DNA of 38,877 bases, from contig RDNZ01000026.1 of NCBI GenBank assembly GCA_011364905.1, positions 1 through 38,877 on the forward strand, written 5' to 3'. A program made the position numbers and the translations under genes. The notes under the pieces were generated by a model that was not told where the DNA came from, did no database searches, and saw only the letters and a list, made by a program, of their open reading frames with translations. Below are positions 310 through 15,945 of the stretch, in pieces; position 1 is the first letter of the stretch; each line of letters opens with the position of its first letter. This stretch comes from Candidatus Thorarchaeota archaeon. Lineage in GTDB: Archaea > Asgardarchaeota > Thorarchaeia > Thorarchaeales > Thorarchaeaceae.

Positions 310-1083
310 ATGGTGTCGGATGGGATTGACATACAAACGGAAGGATTGTCAAAGAATTTTGGACCCGTGGTCGCGTTAAACGACCTGAACCTCACAGTTC
401 GCAAGGGAAGTGTGTTTGGATTCTTGGGACCGAATGGAGCTGGAAAAACCACAACAGTCCGTATCTTATCAGGACTTCTGAGACAGACAAGCGGAAGCGC
501 TAGAGTCTGCGGTTTTGATGTCAGTACTCAACGAAATGAAGTAAAAGCACACACAGGGCTTCTTCCTGAGACTCCAGGTCTCTACTCAAAGCTCTCTGCC
601 GTCGAATTCCTTGAATTCATAGGTGCACTGAACGACTTGAGTGGTGAAACCTTGAACAGAAGAATTGACAGTCTTCTTGCACTGATGGGACTTGAGGGGA
701 GGCAGAATGATCTACTTGAGAGCTATAGTAGCGGGATGAAGCAGAAAGTCCTGGTTGCATCAACTGTTTTGCATGAACCTCAACTGGTATTCCTCGATGA
801 ACCGACATCAAGATTAGACCCAGCCGCAAGCGCGCTCGTTAAAGAACTCATCATCGCTATGGCCGAAGAAACCGAAACAACGTTCTTCATCTGTACACAC
901 ATGACCGATTTTGCAGAGGATGTGTGTGAGGTCATCGGGATTCTCAACCAAGGTATTCTCAATACTCTTGGGTCTCCTAACGAGATTGTCAATCAGGTCG
1001 GAGGCAATGATCTGGAGGACGCCTACCTCAAAATTGTCGGCGGTGAGGTTGACAGGACTAAACTCCTCAGCTGGAGGGACTAA
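310..1083 (+). CDS. ABC-2 type exporter ATP-binding subunit (copy 1)
   Basis: Walker A GPNGAGKT, signature YSSGMKQK, Walker B LVFLDE, H-loop CTH; GGAGA RBS upstream. Confidence 0.95.
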   Translation: MVSDGIDIQTEGLSKNFGPVVALNDLNLTVRKGSVFGFLGPNGAGKTTTVRILSGLLRQTSGSARVCGFDVSTQRNEVKAHTGLLPETPGLYSKLSAVEFLEFIGALNDLSGETLNRRIDSLLALMGLEGRQNDLLESYSSGMKQKVLVASTVLHEPQLVFLDEPTSRLDPAASALVKELIIAMAEETETTFFICTHMTDFAEDVCEVIGILNQGILNTLGSPNEIVNQVGGNDLEDAYLKIVGGEVDRTKLLSWRD

Positions 1084-1085
1084 GT

Positions 1086-2738
1086 CTGACCCAAAAATGG
1101 GCAGCAATTGCAAAGACAGAATTCCTTGTACAAACATCAAGACTACATCGGATGCGAAAAGTAGCAACAGTACTCCTCTTACTCTTCGGAATAGTATGGG
1201 CATTATTCATAGTCCCTGAAATTGTGTCGCTTATCTTGCATTCTTTAGGTACTGGCATTGAAGCATTACTTATGGGAAGTTTTCCGGGCTTGATGCGTTC
1301 AGCAATGCTCTTTGTCTGGGTCATCTTCCTTGTATATCCAATCTCATACGCTCTTCAGGAAATCCAGATAGGCCAATGGGAAATCATGCTTAGCAACAAT
1401 GTAAGCACACGCGAAATGATGTTTGGGATGTTCATAGGAAAGATACCTGTCTATGGACTCCTGGTATTATTCGTTGCTCCAATTGTTCTCTCACCCTTTG
1501 CGATATCCTTGCAAGTCGGATATTTGGGTCAAATAATCATGTATCTGACTGTCTTCTTTGTCGCAATCAGTACCTTGTTTCTCTCGACCCTAATCACAAC
1601 TGCAATTCAGGCCAAACTGGGCGAGTCTTCGAGGGGGAATGATATTGCCAAAGCTCTCGCGATGGTTGTTGCTGTTGTGGTACTAATTCCAATGTATGGA
1701 CTGATGTATTTCGCCGATTCAATGTCTGCGGCACTCGGACTGGATGTGTTCCTGCTTTTCCCATTTACATGGGGAGCTGATATCATCTCATGGACTATTA
1801 TTGCTTTCAATGGAATAGGAATCCCGGCTTCTGCATTTCTTGATGTCTTAAAACTGGGGGCGACAACTGACTTAGTGTTGCTTTTATCTTTCACAGGACT
1901 TGTAGTACTTGTGGCCTACAGGTCTGCAGACAGAATCTTCACTTTTGGTGCAGGACCAAGGACAGAGAAGATTACGACAGTCGGTGAGGAGAACCTATTT
2001 TTGAAAGGCGTTCGGAGAGTCTTTACTGGCCCGTTTGGAGCCTTGGTTGCCAATTCCATCAAGGAATTCTCTAGAAAGATGCAAAATGTTTCTAGACTGC
2101 TATATGGCGTTGTCCTCTCTATACTTTTGCCAGTAATCATCAGCTATAGCGTAGGAAATGCACCTGAAGAAATTCCACCCGAATTCAGATGGCTTCTTCT
2201 GATGATTGTAATCATCATGATAGGGATTATGCTCTCTATGATAACTGGGATAACTTTTGGAGGGATAGGATTTCTTGAGTCTAAAGATCAGTTATGGATA
2301 ATCAAATCAGCACCCAATGGAGCCAGAAAATTCGCAAATGCACGACTTGTTGAGTCTTTATTGCTCGCCATTCCCATTGCTATCACACCATCAATCTTTG
2401 CAGCTGTAGTTTTTGGTTTTGGTATTGTAGAAACAGTTGCACTCATAGCTTACGCATACTGGATGACATTCGGATCCGTTCTATTGTGTATCGGCATCAC
2501 GAGCATTAATCCTGCATACGAAAACCAAAAGAGTAGTGCATTTTACATAAACACATTCGCATCCATTTTCCTAATTATACTCTCAATGATGATTTCATTC
2601 TTTCTTTCGTTTAGTATTCTTATGCTTACTAGTAACTTAGGAATGTTCATGGTCGTTATGAGTACTCCATTGGTTATCATTGGTTGTGTGGCTTATCTGA
2701 TAGGTGTATCAAAACTGTCAACAGCTGACATCAGTTAG
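1086..2738 (+). CDS. ABC-2 type exporter permease, multi-pass (copy 1); probable CTG start at 1086 (first ATG at 1152)
   Basis: About 12 hydrophobic segments. Paralogous to 3609..5255 (IGQWEI.LSNNV, RG.DI.KAL, S.DQLWI.KSAPNG, NP.Y). Homology extends 22 codons upstream of the ATG to a CTG preceded by GGAGG. Confidence 0.85.
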   Translation: MTQKWAAIAKTEFLVQTSRLHRMRKVATVLLLLFGIVWALFIVPEIVSLILHSLGTGIEALLMGSFPGLMRSAMLFVWVIFLVYPISYALQEIQIGQWEIMLSNNVSTREMMFGMFIGKIPVYGLLVLFVAPIVLSPFAISLQVGYLGQIIMYLTVFFVAISTLFLSTLITTAIQAKLGESSRGNDIAKALAMVVAVVVLIPMYGLMYFADSMSAALGLDVFLLFPFTWGADIISWTIIAFNGIGIPASAFLDVLKLGATTDLVLLLSFTGLVVLVAYRSADRIFTFGAGPRTEKITTVGEENLFLKGVRRVFTGPFGALVANSIKEFSRKMQNVSRLLYGVVLSILLPVIISYSVGNAPEEIPPEFRWLLLMIVIIMIGIMLSMITGITFGGIGFLESKDQLWIIKSAPNGARKFANARLVESLLLAIPIAITPSIFAAVVFGFGIVETVALIAYAYWMTFGSVLLCIGITSINPAYENQKSSAFYINTFASIFLIILSMMISFFLSFSILMLTSNLGMFMVVMSTPLVIIGCVAYLIGVSKLSTADIS

Positions 2739-2836
2739 TCTGAATTGTATCCTTCAGGTTCTTTCTTGCGTAGATTTTATATTTTATATTCATTCAGAAA
2801 AAAAAACACAATGTGGAAAGCTACGGGGAATTAGAA

Positions 2837-3607
2837 GTGTCTAATGGTATTCAAATTCAGACAGAGAGCCTTTCCAAGAATTTTGGCTCAGTTGTAGCGT
2901 TGAAAAAACTTGATCTTTCTGTGCGTAAAGGTAGTGTTTTCGGGTATCTCGGTCCAAATGGAGCTGGGAAGACAACTACTGTGAGAATCCTATCTGGCCT
3001 GCTGAAACCATCTGGTGGAAGCGCAACAGTATGCGGATACGATGTACGTACACAGCGAAATGCAATCAAGAGTGTTACAGGTCTCCTACCTGAGTCACCT
3101 GGGCTCTATTCAAAGCTGTCAGCGGTAGAGTTTCTTGAGTTCATTGGAGCTCTCAACAACTTAAGTGGAGAATCTCTCCACAACCGGATTGACAGGCTCT
3201 TGGGAATTCTGGGTCTCGAGGGGAGACAAAATGACCTCTTAGAGAGTTACAGTAGTGGGATGAAGCAGAAAGTGCTAGTTGCATCAACCGTGCTTCATGA
3301 ACCCGAGCTTGTATTTCTCGACGAACCAACATCCAGATTGGATCCGGCAGCAAGTGTGCTTGTGAGAGAGATTATACTTGCTATGGCAAGAGAGACCGAT
3401 ACAACCTTCTTCATCTGCACACATATGACTGACTTCGCTGAGGACCTATGTGAGATAATTGGTATTCTGAATGAGGGAGTTCTCACAACCCTAGGAGCAC
3501 CAAATGAAATTATCGAGCAGACGGGAGGCAACGATCTGGAGGATGCCTACCTCAAGATAGTTGGAGGAGAGATAGACCGCGACACACTCCTGAGCTGGAG
3601 GCAGTGA
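2837..3607 (+). CDS. ABC-2 type exporter ATP-binding subunit (copy 2)
   Basis: Same motifs as copy 1, about 80% identical by hand count. GTG at 2837 aligns with the start of copy 1 (ORF track begins at 2813). Confidence 0.95.
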   Translation: MSNGIQIQTESLSKNFGSVVALKKLDLSVRKGSVFGYLGPNGAGKTTTVRILSGLLKPSGGSATVCGYDVRTQRNAIKSVTGLLPESPGLYSKLSAVEFLEFIGALNNLSGESLHNRIDRLLGILGLEGRQNDLLESYSSGMKQKVLVASTVLHEPELVFLDEPTSRLDPAASVLVREIILAMARETDTTFFICTHMTDFAEDLCEIIGILNEGVLTTLGAPNEIIEQTGGNDLEDAYLKIVGGEIDRDTLLSWRQ

Positions 3608-3608
3608 A

Positions 3609-5255
3609 TTGGTCCGAGTCTGGTGGGCCATTGCGAAGGCGGAGTTTCTCGTCCGAACATCCAAACTCCATAGGTCGCGGAAGATTCTATATCCAGCAGT
3701 CATTGGCATTGCATTAACATTTGGGCTTGTAGTAATTCCGCGAATACTTGGATACTTCTTAGCACGGACTGGCTCTGCATTTGAGATGATTTTGGCGACG
3801 TCATTCCCAGGATTTCTTAGAACAATCATGATGGTCCTCTGGATGTTTATACTGATAGTTCCAATCTCGAATAGTCTTGAAAATGTGAAGATTGGACAAT
3901 GGGAGATTCTCTTCAGTAATAATGTAAAGACAAGAGACCTTCTCTTTGGCACATTTGTTGGAAGGATTCCTGTCTATGGCATCTTTGTAATCGCCCTAGG
4001 ACCAATAGTGGTTTCACCATTTGTCTATGCTTACAATGTTTCCATAATTGGACAACTCCTGATGTATCTGGTTATCTTCGTGTTTGCAGTAGTTACAATT
4101 TGGCTATCGACCGTCTTCAGTACAGCAATTCATGCGAAGATAGGTTCATCGCCCCGAGGTGATGACATCGGGAAGGCGTTGAGCTGGGCGATTGTACCTC
4201 TTGTGGCAGTACCTGCTATGGGATCAATGTATTGGATGAATAGTGTAGTATCGCTATTCAATCTGGATGCATCAATGATTCTGCCTTCAACTTGGTCTGC
4301 GGATATCTTAACTTGGATAGCTATGTACACCGGATCGCTCAGGCCTTCATCAATATTGAATCTTGAGCTATACTGGTTTGCAGTTAGCCCAATCGTTGAT
4401 ATGCTACTACTGGGCATCTTTTCCGCAACTGTTCTATTTCTTGGCTTCAAGAGTGCAGACAGATTATTTGCCTATGGAGCAAGTCCAGGAAGTCAGAAAG
4501 TCGCTCGAGCAGGACCTGAGAACTTATTCATCAGAGGAGTACGCAAAGTCTTTGGAGGACGATTTGGGACTATTATTGCAACATCATTCAAAGACTATAC
4601 AAGAAAGCTCCAGAATATTGCAAAGTTATCATATGGACTCTTCTTGGCTTTTCTCATACCCTTACTCATAGGATTCGGGCCATTTGCCACCATAGTTGAT
4701 GACCCAATCTTTTTGCCAGTCATGGCATCCCTAATGACAGGATTGATGTTAGGAATATTCTCAGGAGTCATATTTGGTGGAGTCGGACTACTAGATAGCC
4801 GTGATCAACTCTGGATTCTAAAAAGCGCACCGAATGGAGTTCCGAAGTTCATCACTGCTCGAGTAGTTTCATACATGATGGTGGGGATACCATATGCAAT
4901 GTTACCAGCTTTGTTCACTGGACTATTGCTAAACTTTGCCTTAAACGAGATTCTACTGACGGTGGCCTTTGTCTATTCGATAGTATTGGGCGGCATCTTC
5001 GTTGGGGTTGGTATCACAGCATGTAATCCATCATACCAGGATACATCCAGCGGTGCGTTCGTCATTAACACAATCGCGTCAATTGTCATAATGATGATTT
5101 GCGTAATTGCATCAATAATACCGGGTGTGATGGTCGCAATCAACCAGGGTGTGTTTGCACCTGCTTTAACCATAGCAAGTGTTCCCGCGCCGCTCATTGG
5201 TCTCATTATATTGATGGTTGGAATGATACGACTAACTCTCATGGAGGCAGATTGA
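3609..5255 (+). CDS. ABC-2 type exporter permease, multi-pass (copy 2)
   Basis: TTG start with GGAGG RBS at 3597-3601, directly after the ATPase; many TM segments; paralog of 1086..2738. Confidence 0.85.
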   Translation: MVRVWWAIAKAEFLVRTSKLHRSRKILYPAVIGIALTFGLVVIPRILGYFLARTGSAFEMILATSFPGFLRTIMMVLWMFILIVPISNSLENVKIGQWEILFSNNVKTRDLLFGTFVGRIPVYGIFVIALGPIVVSPFVYAYNVSIIGQLLMYLVIFVFAVVTIWLSTVFSTAIHAKIGSSPRGDDIGKALSWAIVPLVAVPAMGSMYWMNSVVSLFNLDASMILPSTWSADILTWIAMYTGSLRPSSILNLELYWFAVSPIVDMLLLGIFSATVLFLGFKSADRLFAYGASPGSQKVARAGPENLFIRGVRKVFGGRFGTIIATSFKDYTRKLQNIAKLSYGLFLAFLIPLLIGFGPFATIVDDPIFLPVMASLMTGLMLGIFSGVIFGGVGLLDSRDQLWILKSAPNGVPKFITARVVSYMMVGIPYAMLPALFTGLLLNFALNEILLTVAFVYSIVLGGIFVGVGITACNPSYQDTSSGAFVINTIASIVIMMICVIASIIPGVMVAINQGVFAPALTIASVPAPLIGLIILMVGMIRLTLMEAD

Positions 5256-5259
5256 AGCA

Positions 5260-6765
5260 ATGCGAGTTTCAAAACCATTCCTATTCATCCTCACTATTAT
5301 GCTAATGTCTATGACAGCAACGCCTGTCGAGATGTATGGAATTACGAATGATTATTCCCCGAGATTCACTATGGCCGAGAACAAAGAGATTACAGGAGTC
5401 CCATATGTTTGGCAAGAGGCCAATGGATTCTGTGTTGCATCTGCATTGTCTATGGTCCTGCAAAGCATGGGACTTGACCTTGACCTCTATGACACTCTCG
5501 CAGCATCTGGATCAGGGTTTTCTATGGTTTCCATTAGCGTTGACGAGGCGATGACATTCTACCCTGGGGTTATGGTCCGCCAAATACCATGGATCGAATT
5601 CTTCACAGACCTCTATGGTTTGAAATTTCAATTCTATCTGGACTCAAGTACTGACTATGGTGGGAATGCATTACTGACAGTAGGACAGACATGGGATATT
5701 GAAGTAAATGACTATGCAGATTCTTCTTTATTAACACCCCTGGGAGTGATACGTGATTCTATTGACTCTGGATATCCGCTAGCAATCGCTGTTGACACGT
5801 ACTACCTTCCACCAGTTGACTGGGACATCGTCAGAAACTATGTTGGACCAATGCAACCTGGTGGGATTAGTCATGCGATTGTGATTGTTGGTTACAATGA
5901 CACCTCTCAGACTGTGCGAATTTATGATCCAGGTGTCGGTCTACTTGAACCATATGTTGGATATCCTGATGATGGCCGCTGGAACTATACAATGTCCTAT
6001 ACAGAATTTGATAACGCGTGGCAAAGCGCAGGTTATGTTACATTCAGACTTTCAAACGGAACCGGTCCTGTAACAGACTTTGAAGAACGTCTTGCCTCAC
6101 ACATCACTCAGAGATTGCTTGGAAATCGAACTTCGTACTTTGAAGGGAATGAGAACTTTTTCTACCTGGGTACGGGAGCTAATGCATTCAGGGGAATGGG
6201 ACTTGACATGACTCTTGAGGTAATTCGGGATTATTGCTTCAATTATCGAGAGGTGGACAAGCCCAATGCGATTAGACTTCTCGGACAGAACCTTGAGGTT
6301 ATGATGACTATACAGTATCTTGCATTTCGGAGTTCATTGCAATCCATACCTGACCTTCTCCCATCAAAGAATTTACAGCCATTCCTTGATGCAGCATCAG
6401 AGGCGTTACCTCACATGGAATCTCTTAGTCATAATGCATCAATCACAAGTGGGATCAATGTCATTCCACGAGACACCCTGCTATACAATACGTTCTTTGA
6501 GATGGCAAGCACCTTTGAAGTTTCACATGATTTGGATTATTCAATTAATGAGTTCACTACCCAATTGGAAGAGATATCCTCACATTTCTTTGCTATTGCT
6601 GATGCATGGGAAGCGGCTGGAAATGCACTCTCTCTGGAACTGGAAAGATCTGGAACCATTCTTGATAACAACTTGTCTATAATCATTGGCGGAGGAGGCA
6701 CCATATTGATAGTTGGAGTGATTCTGGTCGTTTGGAGGAGGAAACCTGTTCAGAATGACAATTAG
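5260..6765 (+). CDS. Secreted, C-terminally anchored papain-fold cysteine peptidase (C39-like/BtrH-N-like)
   Basis: N-terminal signal peptide; VPYVWQ...FCVASALSM (oxyanion Gln and catalytic Cys); HAIVIVGYND (His); YDP (Asp); C-terminal TM helix with basic tail WRRK. Confidence 0.75.
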   Translation: MRVSKPFLFILTIMLMSMTATPVEMYGITNDYSPRFTMAENKEITGVPYVWQEANGFCVASALSMVLQSMGLDLDLYDTLAASGSGFSMVSISVDEAMTFYPGVMVRQIPWIEFFTDLYGLKFQFYLDSSTDYGGNALLTVGQTWDIEVNDYADSSLLTPLGVIRDSIDSGYPLAIAVDTYYLPPVDWDIVRNYVGPMQPGGISHAIVIVGYNDTSQTVRIYDPGVGLLEPYVGYPDDGRWNYTMSYTEFDNAWQSAGYVTFRLSNGTGPVTDFEERLASHITQRLLGNRTSYFEGNENFFYLGTGANAFRGMGLDMTLEVIRDYCFNYREVDKPNAIRLLGQNLEVMMTIQYLAFRSSLQSIPDLLPSKNLQPFLDAASEALPHMESLSHNASITSGINVIPRDTLLYNTFFEMASTFEVSHDLDYSINEFTTQLEEISSHFFAIADAWEAAGNALSLELERSGTILDNNLSIIIGGGGTILIVGVILVVWRRKPVQNDN

Positions 6766-6810
6766 ATGAGTTCATATAAAATAGGAATATCATTCACTAG
6801 TTAACGGAAT

Positions 6811-6832
6811 ATTTATAACACATTGTGTCTAG
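6811..6832 (+). promoter_or_regulatory. TATA box with adjacent palindromic operator candidate upstream of the ArsR-GyrI gene
   Basis: ATTTATAA (6811-6818) directly followed by ACACA-T-TGTGT (6818-6828). Confidence 0.4.
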
Positions 6833-6856
6833 GCTCAGAAAGGTGTTGCGTTCAGG

Positions 6857-7720
6857 ATGAACAGCCAGAGTGATGAAGGGAAGTCAGTGAAGATATCACT
6901 GTCAGCTGAGTCTATAGCTAACTACTTTCTGGCAGTATCTCATCCAAAGAGAATCGAGATTCTGAATCTTCTCGCAGAAGAAAGCATGGATTTCGCTGAT
7001 CTGCTTCGTGAAACTGATTTACGAAAGACTGCTCTCTCAAATCAGCTCACCACTCTCACTGACAGGCATCTCGTCAAGAGGGTGAGCCATGGACATTATG
7101 CTCTCACGACGGACGGCAAGAATGTGCTCCGAGTGATTATTGACACATACAAGAAATCCAGACTTAGAAAAGAAGAGGAGAGGGAGAGAATCCTTGAACG
7201 CTACTCCTATAGAAGTGATGAAACAATGACCAAGGATATACAGGTGGAGATTGTCCAACTCGAACCTATGACCGTAGCCAGTGTTCAAGCGATTAGCAAG
7301 TCTCCTGAGGATGATGCATGGAAGAAGATGGTATCTTTTGCTGAACCTCGGGGATTGTTGAAGGACCTCAAAAAGAATCCTATCTTCGGTTTCAATAGTC
7401 CAGATCCATCTCCAGAGAGCGGGAAATACGGATACGAGTTCTGGATTCGTATCGATCCGGATATGGAGCTGGATGAGGGTGTGACTAAGAAGAAGTTCGA
7501 TGGGGGGCTTTATGCAGTAACTAGATGCAATCTCGCAAAGGAAGTCGCATCCACGTTTATGCAAGAACATGGTATGCTAGAGAGCTGGTTCAAACTCGGC
7601 GAGTGGTTCAAGGCGAGTGGATACAAGATGGGAACGCATCAGGGTCTAGAGAAGTCAATCAATCCGAATAAGCCGGATGAGGACCTCTTACTAGATCTAT
7701 ACTGGCCTATCAAGAAGTAG
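6857..7720 (+). CDS. ArsR-family wHTH regulator fused to a GyrI-like small-molecule-binding domain
   Basis: N-term: AVSHPKRIEILNLL...ALSNQLTTL...HGHYALT. C-term: VEIVQLEPMTVAS...IFGFN.P.P....YGYEFWI...F.GGLYAV...W..L.EW...SGY...HQGLE...LDLYWPI. Confidence 0.85.
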   Translation: MNSQSDEGKSVKISLSAESIANYFLAVSHPKRIEILNLLAEESMDFADLLRETDLRKTALSNQLTTLTDRHLVKRVSHGHYALTTDGKNVLRVIIDTYKKSRLRKEEERERILERYSYRSDETMTKDIQVEIVQLEPMTVASVQAISKSPEDDAWKKMVSFAEPRGLLKDLKKNPIFGFNSPDPSPESGKYGYEFWIRIDPDMELDEGVTKKKFDGGLYAVTRCNLAKEVASTFMQEHGMLESWFKLGEWFKASGYKMGTHQGLEKSINPNKPDEDLLLDLYWPIKK

Positions 7721-7848
7721 CACTTAAAGTGTGGAACAGAGATGCTCTCACCCGTCGGCATGAAGAGTGCAGGGCTTCTATGCTCCACACGTCCTTTTTT
7801 TCTCCTTCGTACTTGTATGTTTCTACTCATCATAGGGGATTTAGGCAT

Positions 7849-8751
7849 ATGGAGAGTTCACTAGAGGATAACGATGCAAATGTTATAGCTGACCTCGAAA
7901 ACCTCGTAGGGATGAAGATTCCTAAGCTACGAAGCATAAAAGCGGGCATCACAGGACTCTATAGTTTTGGATTTGAGGAAGAAGAGCATCAAGTTATAGC
8001 TTTGAGTTTAAGAGGCAGGAATATATCATCATTGCCTTCTTCTATTCACAAATTGAAACATCTTCAGAGGTTATATCTTAGAGACAACGAGCTAAGAACG
8101 ATTCCCGAAGGTGTTTGTAAACTTCCAAATCTTTTGGATCTTGATGTGTTCAACAACAAAATTGAATCCATTCCTGATTCTATTGAACAACTCCAAAAAC
8201 TGGAGAGATTCGACCTCTCTCGAAACTTCACTAGTCAGATTCCAGACACCATTGGTAATTTGAGAAACCTGAAACGGCTCGGACTCATGGATGTGCAGTT
8301 GGAGTTGTTGCCTGACTCTATTGGTAAGTTGAAGAATCTCTGGGACCTAGCTGTTTTCATTAACAAACTAGATACACTTCCAGATTCTATTGGCGAGATG
8401 TCTGGTTTAATCCGTCTTGCAGCTCATAAAAACAACCTTTCGGAAATACCCGATACAATTGGTAGTCTTTCAACTTTGAAGGAGTTGTACCTTGCTGACA
8501 ACAAAATGACTTTGCTTCCAAATAGTATTGGACAGCTCAAAGAGCTAGTGAGCCTGAGGCTTGATGGAAACCAACTCACCACTCTTCCAGACTCTATAAC
8601 CAATCTTTCTCACATCAAAGGTCTTAACCTCACGAGGAACAAATTCACATCTTTTCCTGTTGGCATGAAAAGATGGATAGAGAGATTGGAGAAGGGTGGT
8701 TGCAGAGTAAGGATGGACAAGAAACAGAAACAAAGAAGAACTACTCGATGA
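7849..8751 (+). CDS. Leucine-rich repeat protein (about 10 repeats of 23 aa)
   Basis: Repeating LxxLxLxxNxLxxLPxSIGxL pattern. ATG at 7849 has an AGGGG RBS-like element; the ORF-track start at 7729 is probably too far upstream. Confidence 0.9.
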   Translation: MESSLEDNDANVIADLENLVGMKIPKLRSIKAGITGLYSFGFEEEEHQVIALSLRGRNISSLPSSIHKLKHLQRLYLRDNELRTIPEGVCKLPNLLDLDVFNNKIESIPDSIEQLQKLERFDLSRNFTSQIPDTIGNLRNLKRLGLMDVQLELLPDSIGKLKNLWDLAVFINKLDTLPDSIGEMSGLIRLAAHKNNLSEIPDTIGSLSTLKELYLADNKMTLLPNSIGQLKELVSLRLDGNQLTTLPDSITNLSHIKGLNLTRNKFTSFPVGMKRWIERLEKGGCRVRMDKKQKQRRTTR

Positions 8752-8887
8752 ATCCGAAACTCAATCAGATAGGATGGGAACTATCACGACTGTGGTTGGC
8801 GGTGGCTTTGCAATCATTGCCATTGGTGGCGTCATACTTGTATGGCAACGGAAGAGTCCAATAACGCAGGATGATTCACCAACCTGA
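8732..8887 (+). pseudogene. Orphan C-terminal membrane-anchor coding fragment (or a 37-aa ORF at 8774..8887)
   Basis: Reads KEELLDESETQSDRMGTITTVVGGGFAIIAIGGVILVWQRKSPITQDDSPT*, resembling the peptidase tail SIIIGGGGTILIVGVILVVWRRKPVQNDN*. The frame is closed upstream by TAA at 8708. Confidence 0.45.
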
Positions 8888-9218
8888 GTTTTAGGAAAGC
8901 GAGGCCCTCTGGCCAACTTTTCCATGTTCAATGGCAAACAAAATCCAATCTAATGACCCATGGAGAAGTTCCACCCATTATTGGAATAAGACATAGACGC
9001 TGAATTGATTTTTCAAGACGACTATTTCTCGGTAGGTACAATTGACTGCCATCGTTACGTTTCTATTTGATTCTAGAACAGTTCAGAGCGCATTATAGTT
9101 ACAATTCGAAATATGTGTTAAACTGTTCAATATCGTTCATCAAATGTCCTTATTCATACATGAAAATGAAATTAGTGTTTGATAAAAAAGTGACTAAGAT
9201 TATTACTATTTTAGTGTA

Positions 9219-9225
9219 TTATATA
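9219..9225 (+). promoter_or_regulatory. TATA box for the microprotein operon (leaderless geometry)
   Basis: TTATATA about 20 nt upstream of ATG 9245 in an AT-rich intergenic region. Confidence 0.4.
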
Positions 9226-9244
9226 CGTGAACATTGAATCATTA

Positions 9245-9382
9245 ATGCGTCAAGTTACTAGGATGTTCAAAAGCATCTTTGAAACCATGACGCCCATGGG
9301 CAATCATACGGATAATGAAAAGCATCGCTGGGTCCAAAAAAGAAAATCCGAAACCAGTCTTTGGTTCGGATCTTATGATTGA
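9245..9382 (+). CDS. Hypothetical microprotein, 45 aa (MRQVTRMFKSIFETMTPMGNHTDNEKHRWVQKRKSETSLWFGSYD)
   Basis: Hand-translated; follows a TATA box and precedes three coupled ORFs on the same strand. Confidence 0.35.
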   Translation: MRQVTRMFKSIFETMTPMGNHTDNEKHRWVQKRKSETSLWFGSYD

Positions 9383-9404
9383 GAAATCAACGAGGTGATG
9401 CGGA

Positions 9405-9554
9405 ATGAAAAGAAAGAATCCGTATGACTCACGGACCATGGATAGCACCATACTTTTGAACTCTCAGCTCTTGATGCTGGAAAGTGCCGAAAGCACCTCT
9501 ATGGACATTTCTTTTCACCCCATGTTACCGAATGGAGAAGATGATAAAAAATGA
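9405..9554 (+). CDS. Hypothetical microprotein, 49 aa (MKRKNPYDSRTMDSTILLNSQLLMLESAESTSMDISFHPMLPNGEDDKK)
   Basis: Hand-translated; strong RBS GAGGTGA at 9392-9398; stop overlaps the next start (ATGA at 9551-9554). Confidence 0.55.
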   Translation: MKRKNPYDSRTMDSTILLNSQLLMLESAESTSMDISFHPMLPNGEDDKK

Positions 9555-9844
9555 ATGAAATAGTTAGTGGAAACCAACATTCCTTCAAGGTCGTTCTACC
9601 AAAGAGAGTAAGTGATCACACAGATGGCGAACTCAGACTGATGCTCGTGACACTGAAAAACGCAATCGTTGCTAGCTCAGTCCACATATCAAAGATTGAA
9701 CATGAATTGAAGAAACGGAATGCAAATCCGAGGATTCTAAGTGGTCCCAGACTAGAGCTCTTGAGTGGAATCGAGATTGATGAGGATATTGGCGATATAG
9801 AATGGGAAACCCAACTCAATGAGGACAATTCAGTGGCAACATGA
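9551..9844 (+). CDS. Hypothetical small helical/coiled-coil protein, 97 aa
   Basis: GGAGA RBS; ATGA overlaps at both ends; shares a gapless 37-aa domain with the next ORF. Confidence 0.7.
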   Translation: MNEIVSGNQHSFKVVLPKRVSDHTDGELRLMLVTLKNAIVASSVHISKIEHELKKRNANPRILSGPRLELLSGIEIDEDIGDIEWETQLNEDNSVAT

Positions 9845-10035
9845 TTCAAGAAGATGAACTCATAAAATACTCTGATGTTGACCTCAATAGAATGCTGAGT
9901 TCATTGACTGAAACTGTAGAATCATGTATGACGCAAATTGCATTAATTGATTGGGAGATCAAAAGACGCGGCACCAAAGCCTCGGGAAAACTGAGATTCC
10001 AAGTATCGGACGAGATGGGAAGTGAGCCGCAATAA
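9841..10035 (+). CDS. Hypothetical small helical/coiled-coil protein, 64 aa (paralog of the preceding ORF)
   Basis: ATGA overlap; the segment SDxDLxxMLxxL...IxxIDxEIKRR aligns with the preceding ORF. Confidence 0.7.
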   Translation: MIQEDELIKYSDVDLNRMLSSLTETVESCMTQIALIDWEIKRRGTKASGKLRFQVSDEMGSEPQ

Positions 10036-10087
10036 TTTTATCATGAGTTGCATATTGATGATAGTCTTCATTTGACTTGACTTATTT

Positions 10088-11299
10088 TCATTTCAAATGT
10101 ATTTTTCCTGTCACATAATGACTTACGAGATAGCAAATGAAGACTCCCAGAGGAAAAACTAGTCCAATTTTTAGGATAGGGTCAAATTCAATGAATGCAA
10201 TGCTAAGGGAGATTGCAACGAGAATGGGCGGATGGACTAGATACATATGATACGCACTAGTGGAAAGATTCCGCAACAAGGGTCCTTGCTTGTTGAACTT
10301 CGCATAAAAGACCTTAATCAGGATGAAAATGACGCCCATGCAAACGATGTTATCAACTAAAGCAAAAAGGAGCGCATGGACATTAGCTCCTCCTGAGAAT
10401 ATAGCGAGATCTGCGTCAATTCCTAAAACGAGGAAGTAATCGAGATAAATCGCTATTACGCAAATGAATACCGTGACTAACCAGATTTTGACTTGTCTTC
10501 TGGTCATCTTTTCGAACCAACGATAACGAACACTGATAATTCCCACGCCAAACATCATTAGATATTGAATGAGCTGACCCCATGGTATTTCCAGTGGACG
10601 GTCGTCTATGGGCAGGACAATCCGAACAAGAAAGGTAAGACATCCAAGGACAACAGCTAGCAGCAGTAAAAAGAGATATCGTGGAATGGGTAGTTCCTGC
10701 GGAATCCTTCGCTTTAACGAATCTACTTTGGTCATCTGACGCCATATGGTATAGACTGCTGTCAAAATCAGCAAGACCCTAAGAAACCACATGGGTCCAC
10801 CAAATGATATGAAGTCGATGAATTTACTCCACGATTGGAATCCATTGTTGTAGTAATTTAGAATAGATCCCTGCAAAACAGGGTTTGCACTCCAAGGTTC
10901 GACTCCTAGGCTGGATAGAATGTAGATCATAACAGGGTTGACGAATAGGATGTATAGAAAGAGAGGAACCCCAAGACGAAGGAGGCGTTCCTTCCAGAAA
11001 CGGTATCCGCCCTTGCGATCATAGCTTTTAGGAGTAAAATAACCCCCCAGCAGGAAGAATAGTCCCAATAGCGAGGTTTGAAATATGCCTCCAATCGATG
11101 CTATTAGGAGAAGGAATACATAGCTCACAGGACCAGTTGGATTGGATTCTTTATAGTACCACCAACCAATATCCACATATGTAACCATCACGTGCCAGAA
11201 AATAATCAGGATGGCAAAGAGAACCTTAATGTTGTCAAGGAAAAGATACCTCTGCTTTTTGGACTCAGTGGTCCATCTGTTTTCATCAGATAGAGTCAT
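10088..11299 (-). CDS. Acyltransferase family 3 membrane protein (OpgC/MdoC/OafA-like)
   Basis: RYLFLDNIK...H, LFFLLGGYF...SYDRKG...F.KERL.RLG.P, GPMWFL, SAYHMYLVHPP; about 10 TM helices. Confidence 0.9.
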   Translation of the reverse strand: MTLSDENRWTTESKKQRYLFLDNIKVLFAILIIFWHVMVTYVDIGWWYYKESNPTGPVSYVFLLLIASIGGIFQTSLLGLFFLLGGYFTPKSYDRKGGYRFWKERLLRLGVPLFLYILFVNPVMIYILSSLGVEPWSANPVLQGSILNYYNNGFQSWSKFIDFISFGGPMWFLRVLLILTAVYTIWRQMTKVDSLKRRIPQELPIPRYLFLLLLAVVLGCLTFLVRIVLPIDDRPLEIPWGQLIQYLMMFGVGIISVRYRWFEKMTRRQVKIWLVTVFICVIAIYLDYFLVLGIDADLAIFSGGANVHALLFALVDNIVCMGVIFILIKVFYAKFNKQGPLLRNLSTSAYHMYLVHPPILVAISLSIAFIEFDPILKIGLVFPLGVFICYLVSHYVTGKIHLK

Positions 11300-11381
11300 C
11301 CTTTATTTTCAAAAAGCATCTATTTTATGAGCTCTGATTTAAACATGCTTGTTCAAAGAGGAGGCTTCCGAAGGCGACATT

Positions 11382-13643
11382 CTAGTTCCTTCTGTTAATT
11401 ACAGCAGCTGCAAAAACAGGGAATGGGAATTCCCAATCCGCCACGAAACTCGCTGTCCATGATGGGAGTGCAGGTTCAGTCCCTTGAGCAATCATGTCTT
11501 GCCATGCCTCATCTGTGAGTCTATCATTCATTGGCCAGGTGAACTCATAGTAGGAGAAAACTGCGCCTCTTGTCAGAATGACCTGACCATCAATCGGAAC
11601 AGCCACAAGAATGACCATTGGATGTCCAACGCCTTCCTCCAAGACGCTCCCTGTATTTGCATCAGTGTGTACATCTGCAATCACAGCCATGTCTTTATCA
11701 GCATCAGATGATGTTTCACTATCAGTTGAAAATGTGACTATGGACTCAAGTAGATTGCCACTGTTCTGAATTAGACGGAACTCATCCTCTGTAAGTGGTG
11801 TTCCTTCCAACTCCTTAATTGAAATGGTCTGGAAGGCAAGCAGGAGATCCTGCAATTTCTGGAGCTTGTCTTGGATGAGAGATGAAAGAAGACAGCGTGA
11901 GTCGAGACCAGTCATCATCATTTGACACAGCGATGCTAGTCGAGCGTATAGACGCGGAATTGGCTCTACATAGCCTTTGACTTGAGGAGGAAGACCTGCG
12001 AGCACGGTGTAGGGTTGTTTTGCATAGAGAATCGTGTCATGACGAAGCTCGGTCCATGAAGCTAGTGCAGTAGACAACTGCTTGTCGACCCAGGCTTCGC
12101 TTTGCATAAAGAATGGATACCCTTCCCCAGGATCAGTCAATAGAGGAAGAAGTGAATAAAGCCACAGATAATACAGGTTCTGAGTCCATTCGTTTTCGGT
12201 AAGATTCCCGATCATATTCCAGAGCATTTCCATTTGTGAAACATAGTTAACGTAGTCCTTTTGGTCTTCAAGAAGTTCCCACGCACGACCAGACCCAAAA
12301 GCCGCCATGACATCGAGGCCCATCGGCATCAATCGCGGATTTAGAAGAGTGCCAACATTATCATAGATAAGTTGACCAAGTATGTAGCTATCAGGAATGT
12401 ATCTTTGACCCATGAAACGAAAGCCCATGGTTTGATTCAGGTTTTCTCCATCAGAAATTGGATGGCTCAGAATGAGTGGCTCTCTAAGGAGCAGTGCCTC
12501 ATCTATGAAATGTTCAAGGAGAACCTCATTGTTCAAGTCAGCAATCTGAACATCAGTTCCATAAATCTCTCGGATGAGTGTCAGGTACTCGGATGGAACT
12601 AAATCGTCAGCCGCCCCGACAAAGAAAGCGGTTGGCTCATAGAGTGCATCCCAAACATCAAGTCCCACGGGAGCGCCTGAAAGACCTGGGACATTCTCTG
12701 TGAGCGCAAGACAAATGAGGATGGCTTGAGCAGTGTTGTCCTCGCCACTCTCATTTGGAGATGGTTCGGCGTCTGGTTGTAATCTAAAGGACACTCGACC
12801 ATACCACATCATTGCTTGGAAATATCTCTGTAGAGTTTCACTTCTGGTGTAATGACCTCTTGGGACAAACTGTGTGAAGTCCTCTAAATAGTTCATGAAC
12901 CAAGAGGAGGTGATTGCTGAGTGGGCCTCAATTAGAAGAAGGACATTTTCCACTTGCGTTTCAACCTCAGAGGAGAAGGCGGCGGGGATTGTCCAGTCAT
13001 TATCGATCAACTTCATCGCAACTGAAAAGAACATCAAGTTCCTAAGAGCCGCATCCTTCCATCGTCCTGCAGAAGCTACCTGATACTGATTGAAAGACAC
13101 ATCAAGTAGAGCAGCAGTGAGATTGCTGAGTAGGTCCCAGAAGGAATAGACTTCAATCTCTCTCAAAGCCATGTCATAGAGCACGTGGTATGCATGCAGG
13201 ACTGAGTCAGAGGTAACAAAACTCGGTATTCCTCGTTCGTCATTTTCAGAGAGAATATCATAGATTTGTTTGTATTTCGATTGAGAAACCACTGCAAATC
13301 CATTGCTCTGAATCATGGACGAAACGTCGCTTGGAAGCGTTGGATAATCATTGAGATTCACGATGTTAGTCAGTCCGGGATTAACAGTATACGTTGGAGC
13401 ATTGGGACTGAAAGGCTCCTCATATGGAATGAAATCGGCAAAATCCCCTGTCACTATGTTATTGATCGTGTAGGTAGGCGCAATGGGATGCCCTGAGGGA
13501 TGGATGAAGAATGCCCCGGATAGAAATCCAATAGTGGTAACAAAACTCACAGCGAGTAAGGCTGATGCGATACCAGCAGCCATTATTTTTCTTCTCGTCT
13601 CATTATCGAGTGCCCTGACTATCACCGAATACATAAGAATCAA
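11382..13643 (-). CDS. DUF3160 family membrane-anchored extracellular protein
   Basis: Motifs FVTSDSVLHAYH, DFTQFVPRGHYT, YFQAMMWYGR, FRFMGQRY.PDS, LASWTELRHDTILYAKQ, GYVEP, IADVHT, GAVFSYYEF; N-terminal TM. Exact start uncertain. Confidence 0.85.
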   Translation of the reverse strand: MILMYSVIVRALDNETRRKIMAAGIASALLAVSFVTTIGFLSGAFFIHPSGHPIAPTYTINNIVTGDFADFIPYEEPFSPNAPTYTVNPGLTNIVNLNDYPTLPSDVSSMIQSNGFAVVSQSKYKQIYDILSENDERGIPSFVTSDSVLHAYHVLYDMALREIEVYSFWDLLSNLTAALLDVSFNQYQVASAGRWKDAALRNLMFFSVAMKLIDNDWTIPAAFSSEVETQVENVLLLIEAHSAITSSWFMNYLEDFTQFVPRGHYTRSETLQRYFQAMMWYGRVSFRLQPDAEPSPNESGEDNTAQAILICLALTENVPGLSGAPVGLDVWDALYEPTAFFVGAADDLVPSEYLTLIREIYGTDVQIADLNNEVLLEHFIDEALLLREPLILSHPISDGENLNQTMGFRFMGQRYIPDSYILGQLIYDNVGTLLNPRLMPMGLDVMAAFGSGRAWELLEDQKDYVNYVSQMEMLWNMIGNLTENEWTQNLYYLWLYSLLPLLTDPGEGYPFFMQSEAWVDKQLSTALASWTELRHDTILYAKQPYTVLAGLPPQVKGYVEPIPRLYARLASLCQMMMTGLDSRCLLSSLIQDKLQKLQDLLLAFQTISIKELEGTPLTEDEFRLIQNSGNLLESIVTFSTDSETSSDADKDMAVIADVHTDANTGSVLEEGVGHPMVILVAVPIDGQVILTRGAVFSYYEFTWPMNDRLTDEAWQDMIAQGTEPALPSWTASFVADWEFPFPVFAAAVINRRN

Positions 13644-13749
13644 TGGGAACTATTTCTACTTAGTACCATGGATTAGAACACTTTGTCCAGAATTTAGAAC
13701 ATGCAAATAATAGGAATAGATTAATTGCGAATGCTGCCTCCAGAAATAT

Positions 13750-14211
13750 GTGGATGGGATGAGAGATAGTTCTGATGAGAATGCAATTGAGTCGGAACTC
13801 AGAGGCAACACCTTACGGGTCTACTGGTATATGCTTTCGCAGAATGAGCCAGTTGGTGTGCGGCAAGTGCAGAGAGCTATTACAATGTCTAGTCCATCCG
13901 TTGCCAGCCACCACTTGTCCAAGCTTGTGTCTCTAGAACTAGTTGAGAAACTTCCAGATAACTCCTATCAAGTGAGTAGAGTAGTCAAAGTGGGAGTTCT
14001 GAAGAACTTCATTGAGTTCCGTGGTCGGTTTCTCCCACGTTATGTATTTGTTGCCATCTTCTTTTCTGCCTACACAATTGCGTATCTTGCACTGACTCTC
14101 ATTGCGAATCCAGGGATCTACGATAGACTCATAGCAATCGCCATTGGGCTTATTGGCGCAGCATTTGCATGGATTGAGAGCATTAGGCTATGGAAATTGA
14201 AACTCAGTTAG
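13750..14211 (+). CDS. Archaeal wHTH (ArsR-like) regulator with two C-terminal TM helices
   Basis: LRGNTLRVYWYML...GVRQVQRA..MSSPSVASHHLSKL..L.LVEK, followed by two hydrophobic helices. Confidence 0.75.
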   Translation: MDGMRDSSDENAIESELRGNTLRVYWYMLSQNEPVGVRQVQRAITMSSPSVASHHLSKLVSLELVEKLPDNSYQVSRVVKVGVLKNFIEFRGRFLPRYVFVAIFFSAYTIAYLALTLIANPGIYDRLIAIAIGLIGAAFAWIESIRLWKLKLS

Positions 14212-14244
14212 AGTTCAGTAAACCTCTTGAGTCTATTCTACTGA

Positions 14245-15048
14245 GTGTTGTTCATGACAGATAGCTCAACTGCAGACATCGTTTTCAGAGTCATTCATAA
14301 TAGAAGATCAGTCCGGAAGTACTTAGACAAAGAAGTTAGCAATGAAATTCTTTTCAAAATCCTCGAAGCTGGATTTAGAGCCCCTTTCGCTGCTCAGCTT
14401 TGTTCGGCAATCTACACACGGAGTCGAGAGAAGATGAAGGAAGCGGGAATCTCAGTTTATTCCACAGCCCCAGTCCATCTAATCTTCTTCATTGACTTCT
14501 GCAGACTAGAGAAGATAATGACACATCGCAGTCACGAATATGGCTATGACGATATGATGGCAATCTGGTTAGGAATGCAAGATGTTTCGCTGATGATTGA
14601 AAACCTGACAATTGCTGCCGAATCCTTAGGATTGGGTTCTGTTCTGTATGGTCTCGCACCATTGAAGGCAGACTCAATCGCAAAAACATTCAAAGTTCCT
14701 AAGCGTGTCTTTCCCGTTGTAGGTATGAGTATTGGGTATCCTGACCCATCAGAGAACACAGAGATACGCCCAAGGTTCCCATTAGAGATGGCTGCGTTTG
14801 AGGATGAGTATCGCAACCATACTGACGAGGATGTCAAGGCCTGCATGAAGGTGATGGATGAGGGCTACATCGCACAGGGATACTACATCAAGGACCGCAC
14901 AAAGGTGGAACTCGTTGACAAAGAGGACACAATCGGATTTGACAAATACTCTTGGTCAGAGCATATCTCAAGGAAGTTCAGGAGTGCATTTCGAAGCGGA
15001 GACCCTCTACTAGACATCCTCAGAAGGCATGGATTTGACCTGAAATAA
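14245..15048 (+). CDS. Nitroreductase family FMN oxidoreductase (NfsA/FRP-like)
   Basis: RRSVRKY, AGFRAP, IAAESLGLGSV, VFPVVGMSIGYP, RPRFP. Confidence 0.9.
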   Translation: MLFMTDSSTADIVFRVIHNRRSVRKYLDKEVSNEILFKILEAGFRAPFAAQLCSAIYTRSREKMKEAGISVYSTAPVHLIFFIDFCRLEKIMTHRSHEYGYDDMMAIWLGMQDVSLMIENLTIAAESLGLGSVLYGLAPLKADSIAKTFKVPKRVFPVVGMSIGYPDPSENTEIRPRFPLEMAAFEDEYRNHTDEDVKACMKVMDEGYIAQGYYIKDRTKVELVDKEDTIGFDKYSWSEHISRKFRSAFRSGDPLLDILRRHGFDLK

Positions 15049-15102
15049 AGTGAAAAAGGTTGTTTCACTAAAAGAATACAGCGAGTTAGGGTTTGAAGAG
15101 AA

Positions 15103-15945
15103 ATGAGTATTGAAATTTCGGAAGCACACATTATCGCTGAACAGATGACAACCGCACTTCTTGACAAGAAGGTAAAGTCAGTCGCCCTCTATGATTATGA
15201 GAAACTGCAAAAAGTTGGTTTCATTAACAAGAAGATAAAGGATTTCGACAATCTAATCGGCTGTAAGATCAAATCTATCGACCATCGCGGAAATGTCATA
15301 CGTGTCCATTTCAATAAAAAGATGAATCTCGTTCTTTGCGGTGATTACGGAGCGAAGTATCGTTTCTTCAGTAGTGATGAAGACCTGCCAAAGAAGATTC
15401 ACTTCAAAATGGGATTCACTGATGGATCGTTCCTGACCATAAGACAAATAGGAATGGGTTCAATCAATGCTGCCGAAGACAGCCAAGTCCCGAGTCTCTA
15501 CGTAATTAAGCGAGACTTCTCAGATACTCCATCTCCTATTGGAGACCATGACTTCACTTCAGAGAGGTTCTCTGAATTGCTTGTGGGAAAGAAACAGAAT
15601 ATCAAGGCGGCCCTTGTTGGAAAAACTGCTGTTGTGGTTGGTCTGAGTAATTCAGCATTTCAAGAGATCATCTACAAAGCAGGCATACATCCCAAGAGAA
15701 ACACTGGAACCTTGACTGAAACAGAGAGAAACAGTCTATATGATGCATTGAAACAGATTCTCAATGAAAGAATATGCGCCGGAGGAAAGAATCAATTCGA
15801 AGACCTCTATGGAAAACCAGGGCGACATGTCCCTGTCATGGGTCCGAACATGAAGGATCAGAGTTGTCCACAGTGCGGTGCAGCCATAGAGAAGATTGCT
15901 CATGGGGGAGGACAAGTTTACTTCTGCCCACACTGTCAAAGATAG
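15103..15945 (+). CDS. Fpg/Nei (MutM)-family protein with H2TH and C4 zinc finger; canonical catalytic residues absent
   Basis: IKAAL......GLSN....EI.YKAGIHP.R (H2TH) and CPQCG...I.K......YFCPHCQ zinc finger. N-terminus is MSIEISEA rather than MPELPEV. Confidence 0.85.
   Translation: MSIEISEAHIIAEQMTTALLDKKVKSVALYDYEKLQKVGFINKKIKDFDNLIGCKIKSIDHRGNVIRVHFNKKMNLVLCGDYGAKYRFFSSDEDLPKKIHFKMGFTDGSFLTIRQIGMGSINAAEDSQVPSLYVIKRDFSDTPSPIGDHDFTSERFSELLVGKKQNIKAALVGKTAVVVGLSNSAFQEIIYKAGIHPKRNTGTLTETERNSLYDALKQILNERICAGGKNQFEDLYGKPGRHVPVMGPNMKDQSCPQCGAAIEKIAHGGGQVYFCPHCQR

What the first reader, a model, noticed from the sequence alone, without database searches (positions are those of the whole stretch)
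9219..10035. Hidden four-gene microprotein operon with a duplicated, unrecognised 37-aa helical domain
Seen: after a TATA box come ORFs of 45 aa (9245-9382), 49 aa (9405-9554, RBS GAGGTGA), 97 aa and 64 aa. The last three are chained by ATGA overlaps, and the first two are missing from the ORF track. The last two align without gaps: SDHTDGELRLMLVTLKNAIVASSVHISKIEHELKKRN vs IKYSDVDLNRMLSSLTETVESCMTQIALIDWEIKRRG (10/37 identical by hand count, with a conserved heptad-like hydrophobic pattern and an E[LI]K[KR]R end). Such paralogy argues that both are real genes. Inference: a coiled-coil heterodimer pair plus two peptides, for example a regulatory, toxin-antitoxin-like or signalling module. The [ST]DxELxxML start loosely recalls SARAH or uL29 helices, but I cannot assign a family.
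Basis: partly seen in the sequence, partly recalled or inferred. Interest (0 to 1): 0.7.

Follow-up and report, generated by a model that had tools for sequence, protein, structure and literature searches.

The report
Cut-down Thorarchaeota helix and Fe-S operon
The four small ORFs are a rearranged copy of a two-gene operon found only in one family of Thorarchaeota (Asgard archaea): a small protein with an uncatalogued helical domain plus an iron-sulfur protein that starts with a copy of that domain, and here the iron-sulfur part has been lost.

Summary
The ORFs, ATGA overlaps, RBS, TATA box and 10/37 gapless match are all as described. The shared helical domain is real. A profile built only from relatives of the 97-aa protein ranks the 64-aa ORF third of 54,526 ORFs in this genome. 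The same profile matches the N-termini of all 234-242-aa orthologues tested.

"Four-gene microprotein operon" is not what is there.
- **ORF1 (45 aa)** is not conserved as a reading frame. It lies on a conserved 5' leader that may fold to hide the ribosome-binding site.
- **ORF2 (49 aa)** is a conserved leader peptide, fused in frame to the next gene in several relatives.
- **ORF3 (97 aa)** is a real gene under purifying selection.
- **ORF4 (64 aa)** is a remnant of a ~235-aa gene. Sister genomes continue it with a 2x[4Fe-4S] ferredoxin domain and C-terminal helices. Here homology stops after codon 43, next to a relocated acyltransferase gene.

The helical domain has no Pfam, NCBIfam, PADLOC, PDB or Atlas match. 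It has 37 cluster representatives among 1.84 billion proteins and occurs in one archaeal family only. All 18 iron-sulfur genes found follow or are fused to a helical-domain gene. Function is inferred: a partner or dimerisation module for an orphan ferredoxin-like protein. Interest is moderate to low.

The parts
9191..9206 (+). Invariant 16-mer TGACTAAGATTATTAC just upstream of the TATA box. Candidate operator or promoter element.
   Evidence: Identical in all six orthologous loci, where flanking DNA is about 60% identical. Single exact copy in the genome.
9217..9225 (+). TATA-like box TATTATATA of the operon promoter.
   Evidence: Read directly and conserved in the orthologues. Promoter function is inferred.
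9245..9382 (+). ORF1 (45 aa, P0001). A window-specific ORF lying on the conserved leader, most likely not a gene.
   Evidence: No codon periodicity (25/43, 26/42, 28/43). 1- and 2-nt indels relative to the orthologues. G010 and G026 read the conserved block in another frame. G017 and G006 stop after 5-8 codons.
9318..9410 (+). Conserved 5' leader, 87% mean column identity. Predicted anti-SD GCATCGC (9322-9328) pairs with GTGATGC (9395-9401) of the SD. The stem encloses hairpins at 9346-9371 and about 9378-9392.
   Evidence: RNAalifold consensus with 22 pairs, few of them covarying. Single-sequence fold z-score -2.3. No Rfam match. The covariance model finds only the six orthologous loci in 86 genomes.
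9405..9554 (+). ORF2 (49 aa, P0002). Leader peptide or N-terminal extension of gene 1, ending in an ATGA overlap with gene 1.
   Evidence: The start, SD and N-terminus MKRKIPYEAWSRxCAK are conserved, with dN/dS 0.04-0.17 and variable sites 2/2/9 of 20 by codon position in four relatives. It is fused in frame to gene 1 in G010, G026, G006, P0010, P0011 and P0014. The window copy has diverged.
9551..9844 (+). ORF3 (97 aa, P0003), gene 1. Small protein with the orphan domain: extended FxVxLP segment, 31-residue helix, then an RIL motif.
   Evidence: dN/dS 0.10-0.16 against orthologues and variable sites 36/18/56 of 66. Paralogue in the own genome at C32. 37 cluster representatives in 1.84e9 proteins. 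AF2 pLDDT above 94 for residues 10-60, helix 25-55.
9841..10035 (+). ORF4 (64 aa, P0004). Truncated remnant of gene 2. Codons 1-43 (9841-9968) are the paralogous helix. The last 21 codons (9969-10032) have no counterpart in the orthologues.
   Evidence: Orthologues are 234-236 aa with a 2x[4Fe-4S] domain. DNA homology to G005 ends at 9968 and resumes at 11428. P0004 nests inside the clade of gene-2 N-termini. No other short stand-alone form was found.
10088..11299 (-). Acyl_transf_3 membrane acyltransferase gene, occupying the place of the lost 3' three-quarters of gene 2.
   Evidence: Pfam PF01757 at 8.9e-27. In G010 and G027 its orthologue (70-72% identity) sits elsewhere, after the nitroreductase and Fpg/Nei-like genes.

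Best explanation
The locus is a rearranged, partly degraded copy of a two-gene operon confined to one family of Thorarchaeota.

**Intact form (as in the SMTZ1-45-like genome G005).** A conserved promoter and structured leader drive, in order:
- a short leader peptide;
- gene 1, a ~95-aa protein made of an extended segment and one long helix;
- gene 2, a ~235-aa protein with a diverged copy of that helical domain, a 2x[4Fe-4S] ferredoxin domain and C-terminal helices.

**In this window.** A rearrangement that brought in an acyltransferase gene removed everything in gene 2 after codon 43, leaving the 64-aa ORF4. ORF3 is an intact, selected gene 1. ORF2 is the leader peptide, translationally coupled to gene 1. 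ORF1 is a chance ORF on the leader RNA.

**Inferred mechanism.** The helical domain is a protein-protein association module. Through it gene 1 pairs with the Fe-S protein, either with its own N-terminal copy or with its C-terminal helices. Together they form a lineage-specific electron-transfer or redox-sensing complex.

**Consequence here.** No Fe-S partner was found in the 81%-complete assembly. Gene 1 may therefore act alone or with its solo paralogue, and ORF4 is probably a recent remnant.
For: **Shown**
- Synteny and breakpoints. HTH-GyrI, leader, gene 1, gene 2 and DUF3160 are collinear in G005. Window homology runs 9153-9968, then resumes at 11428.
- The acyltransferase orthologue lies elsewhere in G010 and G027.
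- Gene-2 orthologues carry two CxxCxxCxxxCP motifs and Fer4 Pfam hits.
- A gene-1-only profile detects P0004 and all gene-2 N-termini.
- P0031, P0032 and P0103 are direct fusions of a gene-1-like domain to the Fe-S protein.
- All 18 Fe-S genes in 17 genomes sit directly downstream of, or fused to, a helical-domain gene.
- P0004 nests within a clade whose other members are all full-length Fe-S proteins.
- Coding signatures are present for ORF2-4 and absent for ORF1.
- The own genome has no Fe-S family match at E 1e-25.

**Inferred**
- The association role, from the fusions, the strict adjacency and a predicted 31-residue amphipathic helix.
Against: - No transcript or protein data exist.
- P0004 still has an intact frame, an ATGA-coupled start and 43-59% identity to orthologous helices, so it may be retained by selection rather than being a dead remnant.
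- The genome is only 81% complete, so an Fe-S partner could lie in the missing part.
- AF2 of the full 235-aa orthologue was poor (pLDDT 52). No structural support for docking of the helix on the Fe-S protein was obtained.
- Solo subfamilies of the helical protein exist in 18 genomes with no Fe-S family match, so the domain does not strictly need the Fe-S partner.
Confidence: 0.75

Rival explanations
1. ORF3 and ORF4 form a functional coiled-coil heterodimer of two microproteins in this organism. The truncated ORF4 is kept as a stand-alone helix, for example as a decoy or regulator of gene 1 protein.
For: Real paralogy. ORF4 is intact with an ATGA-coupled start. Codon-type variation 15/17/34 of 43 and pN/pS 0.35-0.40, similar to the values among orthologues.
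Against: No other stand-alone short form was found among 5.8 billion clusters or 1.84 billion representatives. ORF4 has lost the N-terminal ILP segment, carries a novel 21-residue tail and changes the conserved IERE motif to IDWE. It sits on a long branch. The substitution statistics mostly reflect time before the truncation.
Confidence: 0.2
2. The helical domain is a DNA-binding module loosely like a ribbon-helix-helix. With the Fe-S protein it would form a redox- or oxygen-sensing transcription factor that autoregulates through the invariant 16-mer next to the TATA box.
For: A basic N-terminal FxVxLP strand-like motif followed by helix. Fusion to an Fe-S domain. The invariant 16-mer. Neighbours are regulators and stress or repair genes: HTH-GyrI, double-HTH fam7, nitroreductase, Fpg/Nei-like, DinB, AlkZ-like.
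Against: AF2 gives one continuous helix at 25-55, not helix-turn-helix. No RHH or other DNA-binding Pfam model matches any of 51 members in a consistent way. No fold match. The neighbour themes are weak and variable.
Confidence: 0.15
3. The whole window locus is dead: all four ORFs are pseudogene debris of the ancestral operon.
For: Gene 2 is truncated. The ORF2 peptide has diverged more than in relatives. No Fe-S partner was found in the genome.
Against: ORF3 is full length, 51-68% identical to orthologues, with dN/dS 0.10-0.16. The promoter, 16-mer, leader and both SD sequences are intact.
Confidence: 0.08

Closest known systems
2x[4Fe-4S] bacterial-type ferredoxin domains (Pfam Fer4 clan; nearest solved: the HdrA C-terminal ferredoxin domain, FwdF polyferredoxin, RnfB)
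   Same: Gene-2 orthologues carry two CxxCxxCxxxCP motifs and match Fer4 models (2e-12) and these PDB chains (to 6.5e-19) over about 55 residues.
   Different: Only the cluster-binding core matches. The N-terminal helical domain, the conserved LDPxExAL(L/V)SxIEVR segment and the 85-residue C-terminal helical region match nothing. The window's ORF4 has no Fe-S domain at all.
Ribbon-helix-helix proteins (Arc/MetJ/CopG type)
   Same: Small size, an N-terminal hxhxLP strand-like motif with basic residues followed by helix, likely oligomeric. This is a resemblance from my own knowledge.
   Different: The prediction is one 31-residue helix rather than two helices with a turn. No RHH Pfam model matches.
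Upstream leader peptides and translationally coupled uORFs, and SD-sequestering leader RNAs of bacteria
   Same: ORF2 has its own SD and ends at or just past the start of gene 1 when it is not fused. The leader is predicted to pair an anti-SD with that SD.
   Different: There is no Rfam family. Only six sequences are known, with little covariation. The peptide is fused in frame to gene 1 in several species, which ordinary leader peptides are not.

Membership tests
4Fe-4S dicluster ferredoxin domain (Pfam Fer4 / Fer4_7) | Two CxxCxxCxxxCP cluster-binding motifs | tested here: not met
   Present in the orthologues P0005 and P0015-P0078. Absent from the window's ORF4, which ends 21 residues after the helix.
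Ribbon-helix-helix (Arc/MetJ/CopG) | Beta-strand followed by two helices joined by a short turn, with a match to RHH profiles | tested here: not met
   AF2 predicts one helix at 25-55 with pLDDT about 95. No RHH Pfam hit for P0003 at E up to 10 or among 51 members at E up to 5.
Toxin-antitoxin or defence modules | Match to a known toxin, antitoxin or defence protein family, and a conserved two-gene toxin-antidote pairing | tested here: not met
   No PADLOC, Pfam or NCBIfam hit. The conserved partner is a ferredoxin-like protein.
SARAH domain / ribosomal protein uL29 | Match to the Pfam profiles of these helical families | tested here: not met
   No Pfam hit of any kind for P0003 or P0004 at E up to 10. 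Neither family is among the weak hits of 51 members.
Known cis-regulatory RNA families (Rfam) | Covariance-model match | tested here: not met
   No Rfam match at E up to 1 in 8700-10150.
Parallel or antiparallel coiled-coil dimer | Heptad a/d hydrophobic pattern over at least 4 heptads, and a dimer interface | tested here: inconclusive
   L28, L32, L35, I39, (S42), I46, I49 and L53 give a 4-3 spacing on a predicted 31-residue helix. No multimer prediction was possible with these tools.

The most novel reading that the evidence does not exclude
A Thorarchaeota-specific redox module built from parts not yet catalogued. These are a strand-helix domain that recruits or dimerises an orphan 2x[4Fe-4S] protein (possibly a redox-sensing regulator), expressed from an mRNA with a conserved leader peptide and an SD-sequestering leader RNA. 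In this genome the truncated gene 2 would survive as a stand-alone microprotein that modulates gene 1 protein.
Probability: 0.12. Interest if true: 0.6.

Novelty: new variant of a known kind. Interest (0 to 1): 0.33.

Why it matters
- **Annotation.** Two of the four "hidden genes" should not be annotated as independent genes. ORF1 is non-coding and ORF4 is a remnant.
- **A defined family.** The work gives a small uncatalogued domain family a clear genomic signature: always next to or fused with one orphan ferredoxin-like protein, in one Asgard family only. That gives a testable partner for an otherwise anonymous Fe-S protein.
- **Regulation.** The conserved leader peptide and leader RNA are candidate cis-regulation in Asgard archaea, where such elements are, to my knowledge, barely charted.
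- **Limits.** It does not bear on a long-standing open question, and the function remains inferred.

Tried and rejected
- Pairwise BLASTP of the two ORFs gave no signal. Profiles were needed.
- Pfam, NCBIfam, PADLOC, PDB sequence search, ESM Atlas and Foldseek on the AF2 model gave no match for the helical domain.
- The AF2 model of the 235-aa orthologue was too poor (pLDDT 52) for a fold search.
- A covariance model of the leader found no further copies beyond its six training loci in 86 genomes, so covariation could not be strengthened.
- The metagenome scan returned only two loci, both from species already in hand.
The locus of the closest relative, P0008 (68% identical to ORF3), therefore could not be examined and the truncation could not be dated.
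- The Archaeoglobus polyferredoxin P0079 shares only Fe-S repeats.
- One literature search found nothing specific.
- I considered a palindromic operator in the promoter, but the ACTAA...TTAGT repeat is not conserved.

Full report
**1.

The four ORFs exist at the stated coordinates. P0002/P0003 and P0003/P0004 overlap by ATGA. GAGGTGAT lies 5 nt upstream of the P0002 ATG. TATTATATA lies at 9217-9225. The gapless 37-residue match between P0003 and P0004 has 10 identities. None of the four proteins matches Pfam at E up to 10. BLASTP between P0003 and P0004 sees nothing.

**2. Organism and relatives**

The window is contig C22 of a 3.08-Mb assembly that is 81% complete.

P0003 has:
- a 44%-identical paralogue in the same genome (C32:3147-3323, an 89-aa ORF);
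- homologues in 14 of 27 genomes of its genus, often several per genome.

With a 51-sequence profile the family appears in 34 of 85 other genomes of the same taxonomic family (five genera). It appears in none of 315 genomes from other families of the phylum. An exhaustive HMMER search of 1.84 billion cluster representatives finds only 37. It has no PDB, Atlas, NCBIfam or PADLOC match.

**3. The intact operon in sister genomes**

In G005 (identical to a protein labelled Thorarchaeota SMTZ1-45) and its metagenome twin L047, the gene order is:
- an HTH-GyrI regulator (287 aa);
- the leader;
- a 47-aa ORF;
- gene 1 (94 aa);
- gene 2 (235 aa);
- a convergent DUF3160 gene.

Gene 2 has three parts. 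It begins with SVILPSELRNYTDSDLSKMLSSLRDNVEVFVAQIAMIERELKRR, the counterpart of P0004. It continues with a 2x[4Fe-4S] ferredoxin domain (Fer4, 2e-12) and about 85 residues of predicted helices. G010 and G026 have the same pair.

**4. ORF4 is a remnant**

blastn of the window against L047 gives three blocks:

| Window | L047 | Content |
|---|---|---|
| 6839-7832 | 2355-3348 | HTH-GyrI regulator |
| 9153-9968 | 3608-4418 | leader to codon 43 of P0004 |
| 11428-13700 | 5092-7364 | DUF3160 |

- Window 9969-11427 holds the last 21 codons of P0004 and an Acyl_transf_3 gene. It replaces the Fe-S domain and the C-terminal part of gene 2.
- In G010 and G027 the orthologous acyltransferase (70-72% identity) lies after the nitroreductase and Fpg/Nei-like genes. 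The region has therefore been reshuffled.
- Window 7833-9152, most of the LRR gene, is a second lineage-specific segment.
- In a tree of the domain, the gene-2 N-termini form one clade. P0004 sits inside it on a long branch. Every other member is a 234-236-aa Fe-S protein.
- No other short stand-alone protein like P0004 was found.
- The own genome has no member of the Fe-S family at all, though the assembly is incomplete.

**5. The duplicated domain is real**

- A profile built from 25 gene-1-type proteins only was searched against all 54,526 stop-to-stop ORFs of the genome. It ranks P0003 and its C32 paralogue first and P0004 third (E 0.031).
- With the same database size, it scores the N-termini of the 234-242-aa Fe-S proteins at E 1.8e-28 to 0.046.
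- The full-length orthologues also keep the preceding hxILP segment that P0004 has lost.
- P0031, P0032 and P0103 (239-242 aa) are outright fusions of a gene-1-like domain to the Fe-S protein.

**6. Linkage with the Fe-S protein**

The Fe-S family occurs in 17 of 86 genomes. Each of its 18 copies lies immediately downstream of, or is fused to, a helical-domain gene (coordinates).

The helical family also has solo subfamilies. One is ERKxSFKCCIPR...TDDELRLS, typically next to DinB-like genes and either AlkZ-like or unannotated neighbours. Another is HQRHLKF...KYIIHQ.

Split and fused modules in other genera usually sit beside a ~350-aa double-HTH regulator.

**7. Coding status of each ORF**

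| ORF | Variable sites by codon position (1/2/3) | dN/dS or pN/pS |
|---|---|---|
| Gene 1 (P0003) | 36/18/56 of 66 | dN/dS 0.10-0.16, window vs orthologues |
| P0004, homologous part | 15/17/34 of 43 | pN/pS 0.35-0.40 |
| P0002, first 20 codons | 2/2/9 of 20 in four relatives | dN/dS 0.04-0.17 in relatives; 0.14-0.46 for the window |
| P0001 | 25/43, 26/42, 28/43 | not applicable |

- **P0002.** The conserved N-terminus in relatives is MKRKIPYEAWSRxCAK. The ORF is fused in frame to gene 1 in G010, G026, G006, P0010, P0011 and P0014. Where it is split, it ends within a few nucleotides of the gene 1 ATG. Gene 1 keeps its own GGAGG motif in all. I read it as a translated leader peptide or N-terminal extension.
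- **P0001.** Besides having no periodicity, it has 1- and 2-nt indels relative to the orthologues. G010 and G026 read the conserved block in a different frame. G017 and G006 stop after 5-8 codons. Spurious ORFs of 40-70 aa are common in this window.

**8. What lies under ORF1**

The DNA is strongly conserved: an invariant TGACTAAGATTATTAC at 9191-9206, the TATA box, and a 93-nt block at 9318-9410 with 87% mean column identity.

RNAalifold pairs (A/G)CATC(A/G)C with the GTGATG of the SD, enclosing two hairpins. A few pairs covary: G-C, A-U and G-U at one pair, and C-G and U-A at another. Two sequences break the latter pair. The window sequence folds with z -2.3. Rfam has no match. A covariance model finds only the six orthologous loci. 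This remains a candidate SD-sequestering leader, not a demonstrated one.

**9. Structure**

AF2 with 51 sequences gives pLDDT above 94 for residues 10-60 of P0003. The model has an extended segment at 10-24 and a single helix at 25-55, followed by a poorly ordered acidic tail. Foldseek finds nothing. Hydrophobic positions L28, L32, L35, I39, I46, I49 and L53 follow 4-3 spacing. P17, L28 and N37 are invariant.

The 235-aa model was poor. Sequence matches of the Fe-S core are to the HdrA, FwdF and RnfB ferredoxin domains only.

**10. Reading**

- **Shown.** The gene family, the paralogy, the truncation, the strict adjacency or fusion with the Fe-S protein, and the non-coding nature of ORF1.
- **Inferred.** The helical domain mediates association of gene 1 protein with the Fe-S protein, in an electron-transfer or redox-sensing role.
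- **Rivals.** A DNA-binding, RHH-like role with the Fe-S domain as sensor; a retained microprotein role for ORF4; death of the whole locus.

Noticed in passing
window 9318-9410: Conserved 93-nt leader predicted to pair an anti-SD (9322-9328) with the SD of ORF2 (9395-9401) around two hairpins. No Rfam family. Known from six species only.
   Followed up: partly
window 9191-9206: 16-mer TGACTAAGATTATTAC, invariant in six species, directly upstream of the TATA box. Possible operator, with the adjacent HTH-GyrI regulator or the operon's own product as candidate binders.
   Followed up: partly
window 7729-7832: The first ~100 nt of the 340-aa LRR ORF (GTG at 7729) are homologous to DNA downstream of the HTH-GyrI gene in G005, which has no LRR gene. 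The real LRR start is probably further downstream, for example near MESSLEDND.
   Followed up: no
L007 (G026:C237), about 1000-1036, minus strand: Gene 2 of G026 carries an in-frame TAA at codon 12 (MMESRIERRKP*VSEILP), where G010 has a sense codon. This may be a second, independent erosion of the N-terminal helical domain or a sequencing error.
   Followed up: partly
window 7833-15945, compared with L060, L061 and L047: The neighbourhood is a rearrangement hot spot. The LRR, DUF3160, 153-aa, nitroreductase, Fpg/Nei-like and acyltransferase genes occur in different orders and subsets in G000, G005, G010 and G027. G027 has LRR directly next to DUF3160 with no helix/Fe-S operon.
   Followed up: partly
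G000:C32:3102-3374 (L002:1456-1722, minus strand): The solo paralogue of ORF3 in the same genome (89 aa, CC...C-rich ERKISFKCCIPRECSNCTDDELRLS subfamily) sits between a DinB-like gene and an AlkZ-like DNA glycosylase gene. This subfamily has conserved cysteines that the window's type lacks.
   Followed up: partly
L011:2045-3085, L063:5186-6286, L064:1666-2739 and 4810-5850: A ~350-aa protein with two weak HTH matches (LNVELLRLICSGxGVEINISELS...) is the recurrent neighbour of the split and fused helix/Fe-S modules in several genera. No good Pfam or NCBIfam assignment.
   Followed up: partly
P0016-P0030, residues about 175-200: The gene-1 profile gives a weak second match to the first C-terminal helix of the Fe-S proteins (HEAILEAQAALRTIEGILSHR) in 12 of them. 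This may be a further degenerate copy of the helix or just compositional similarity.
   Followed up: no
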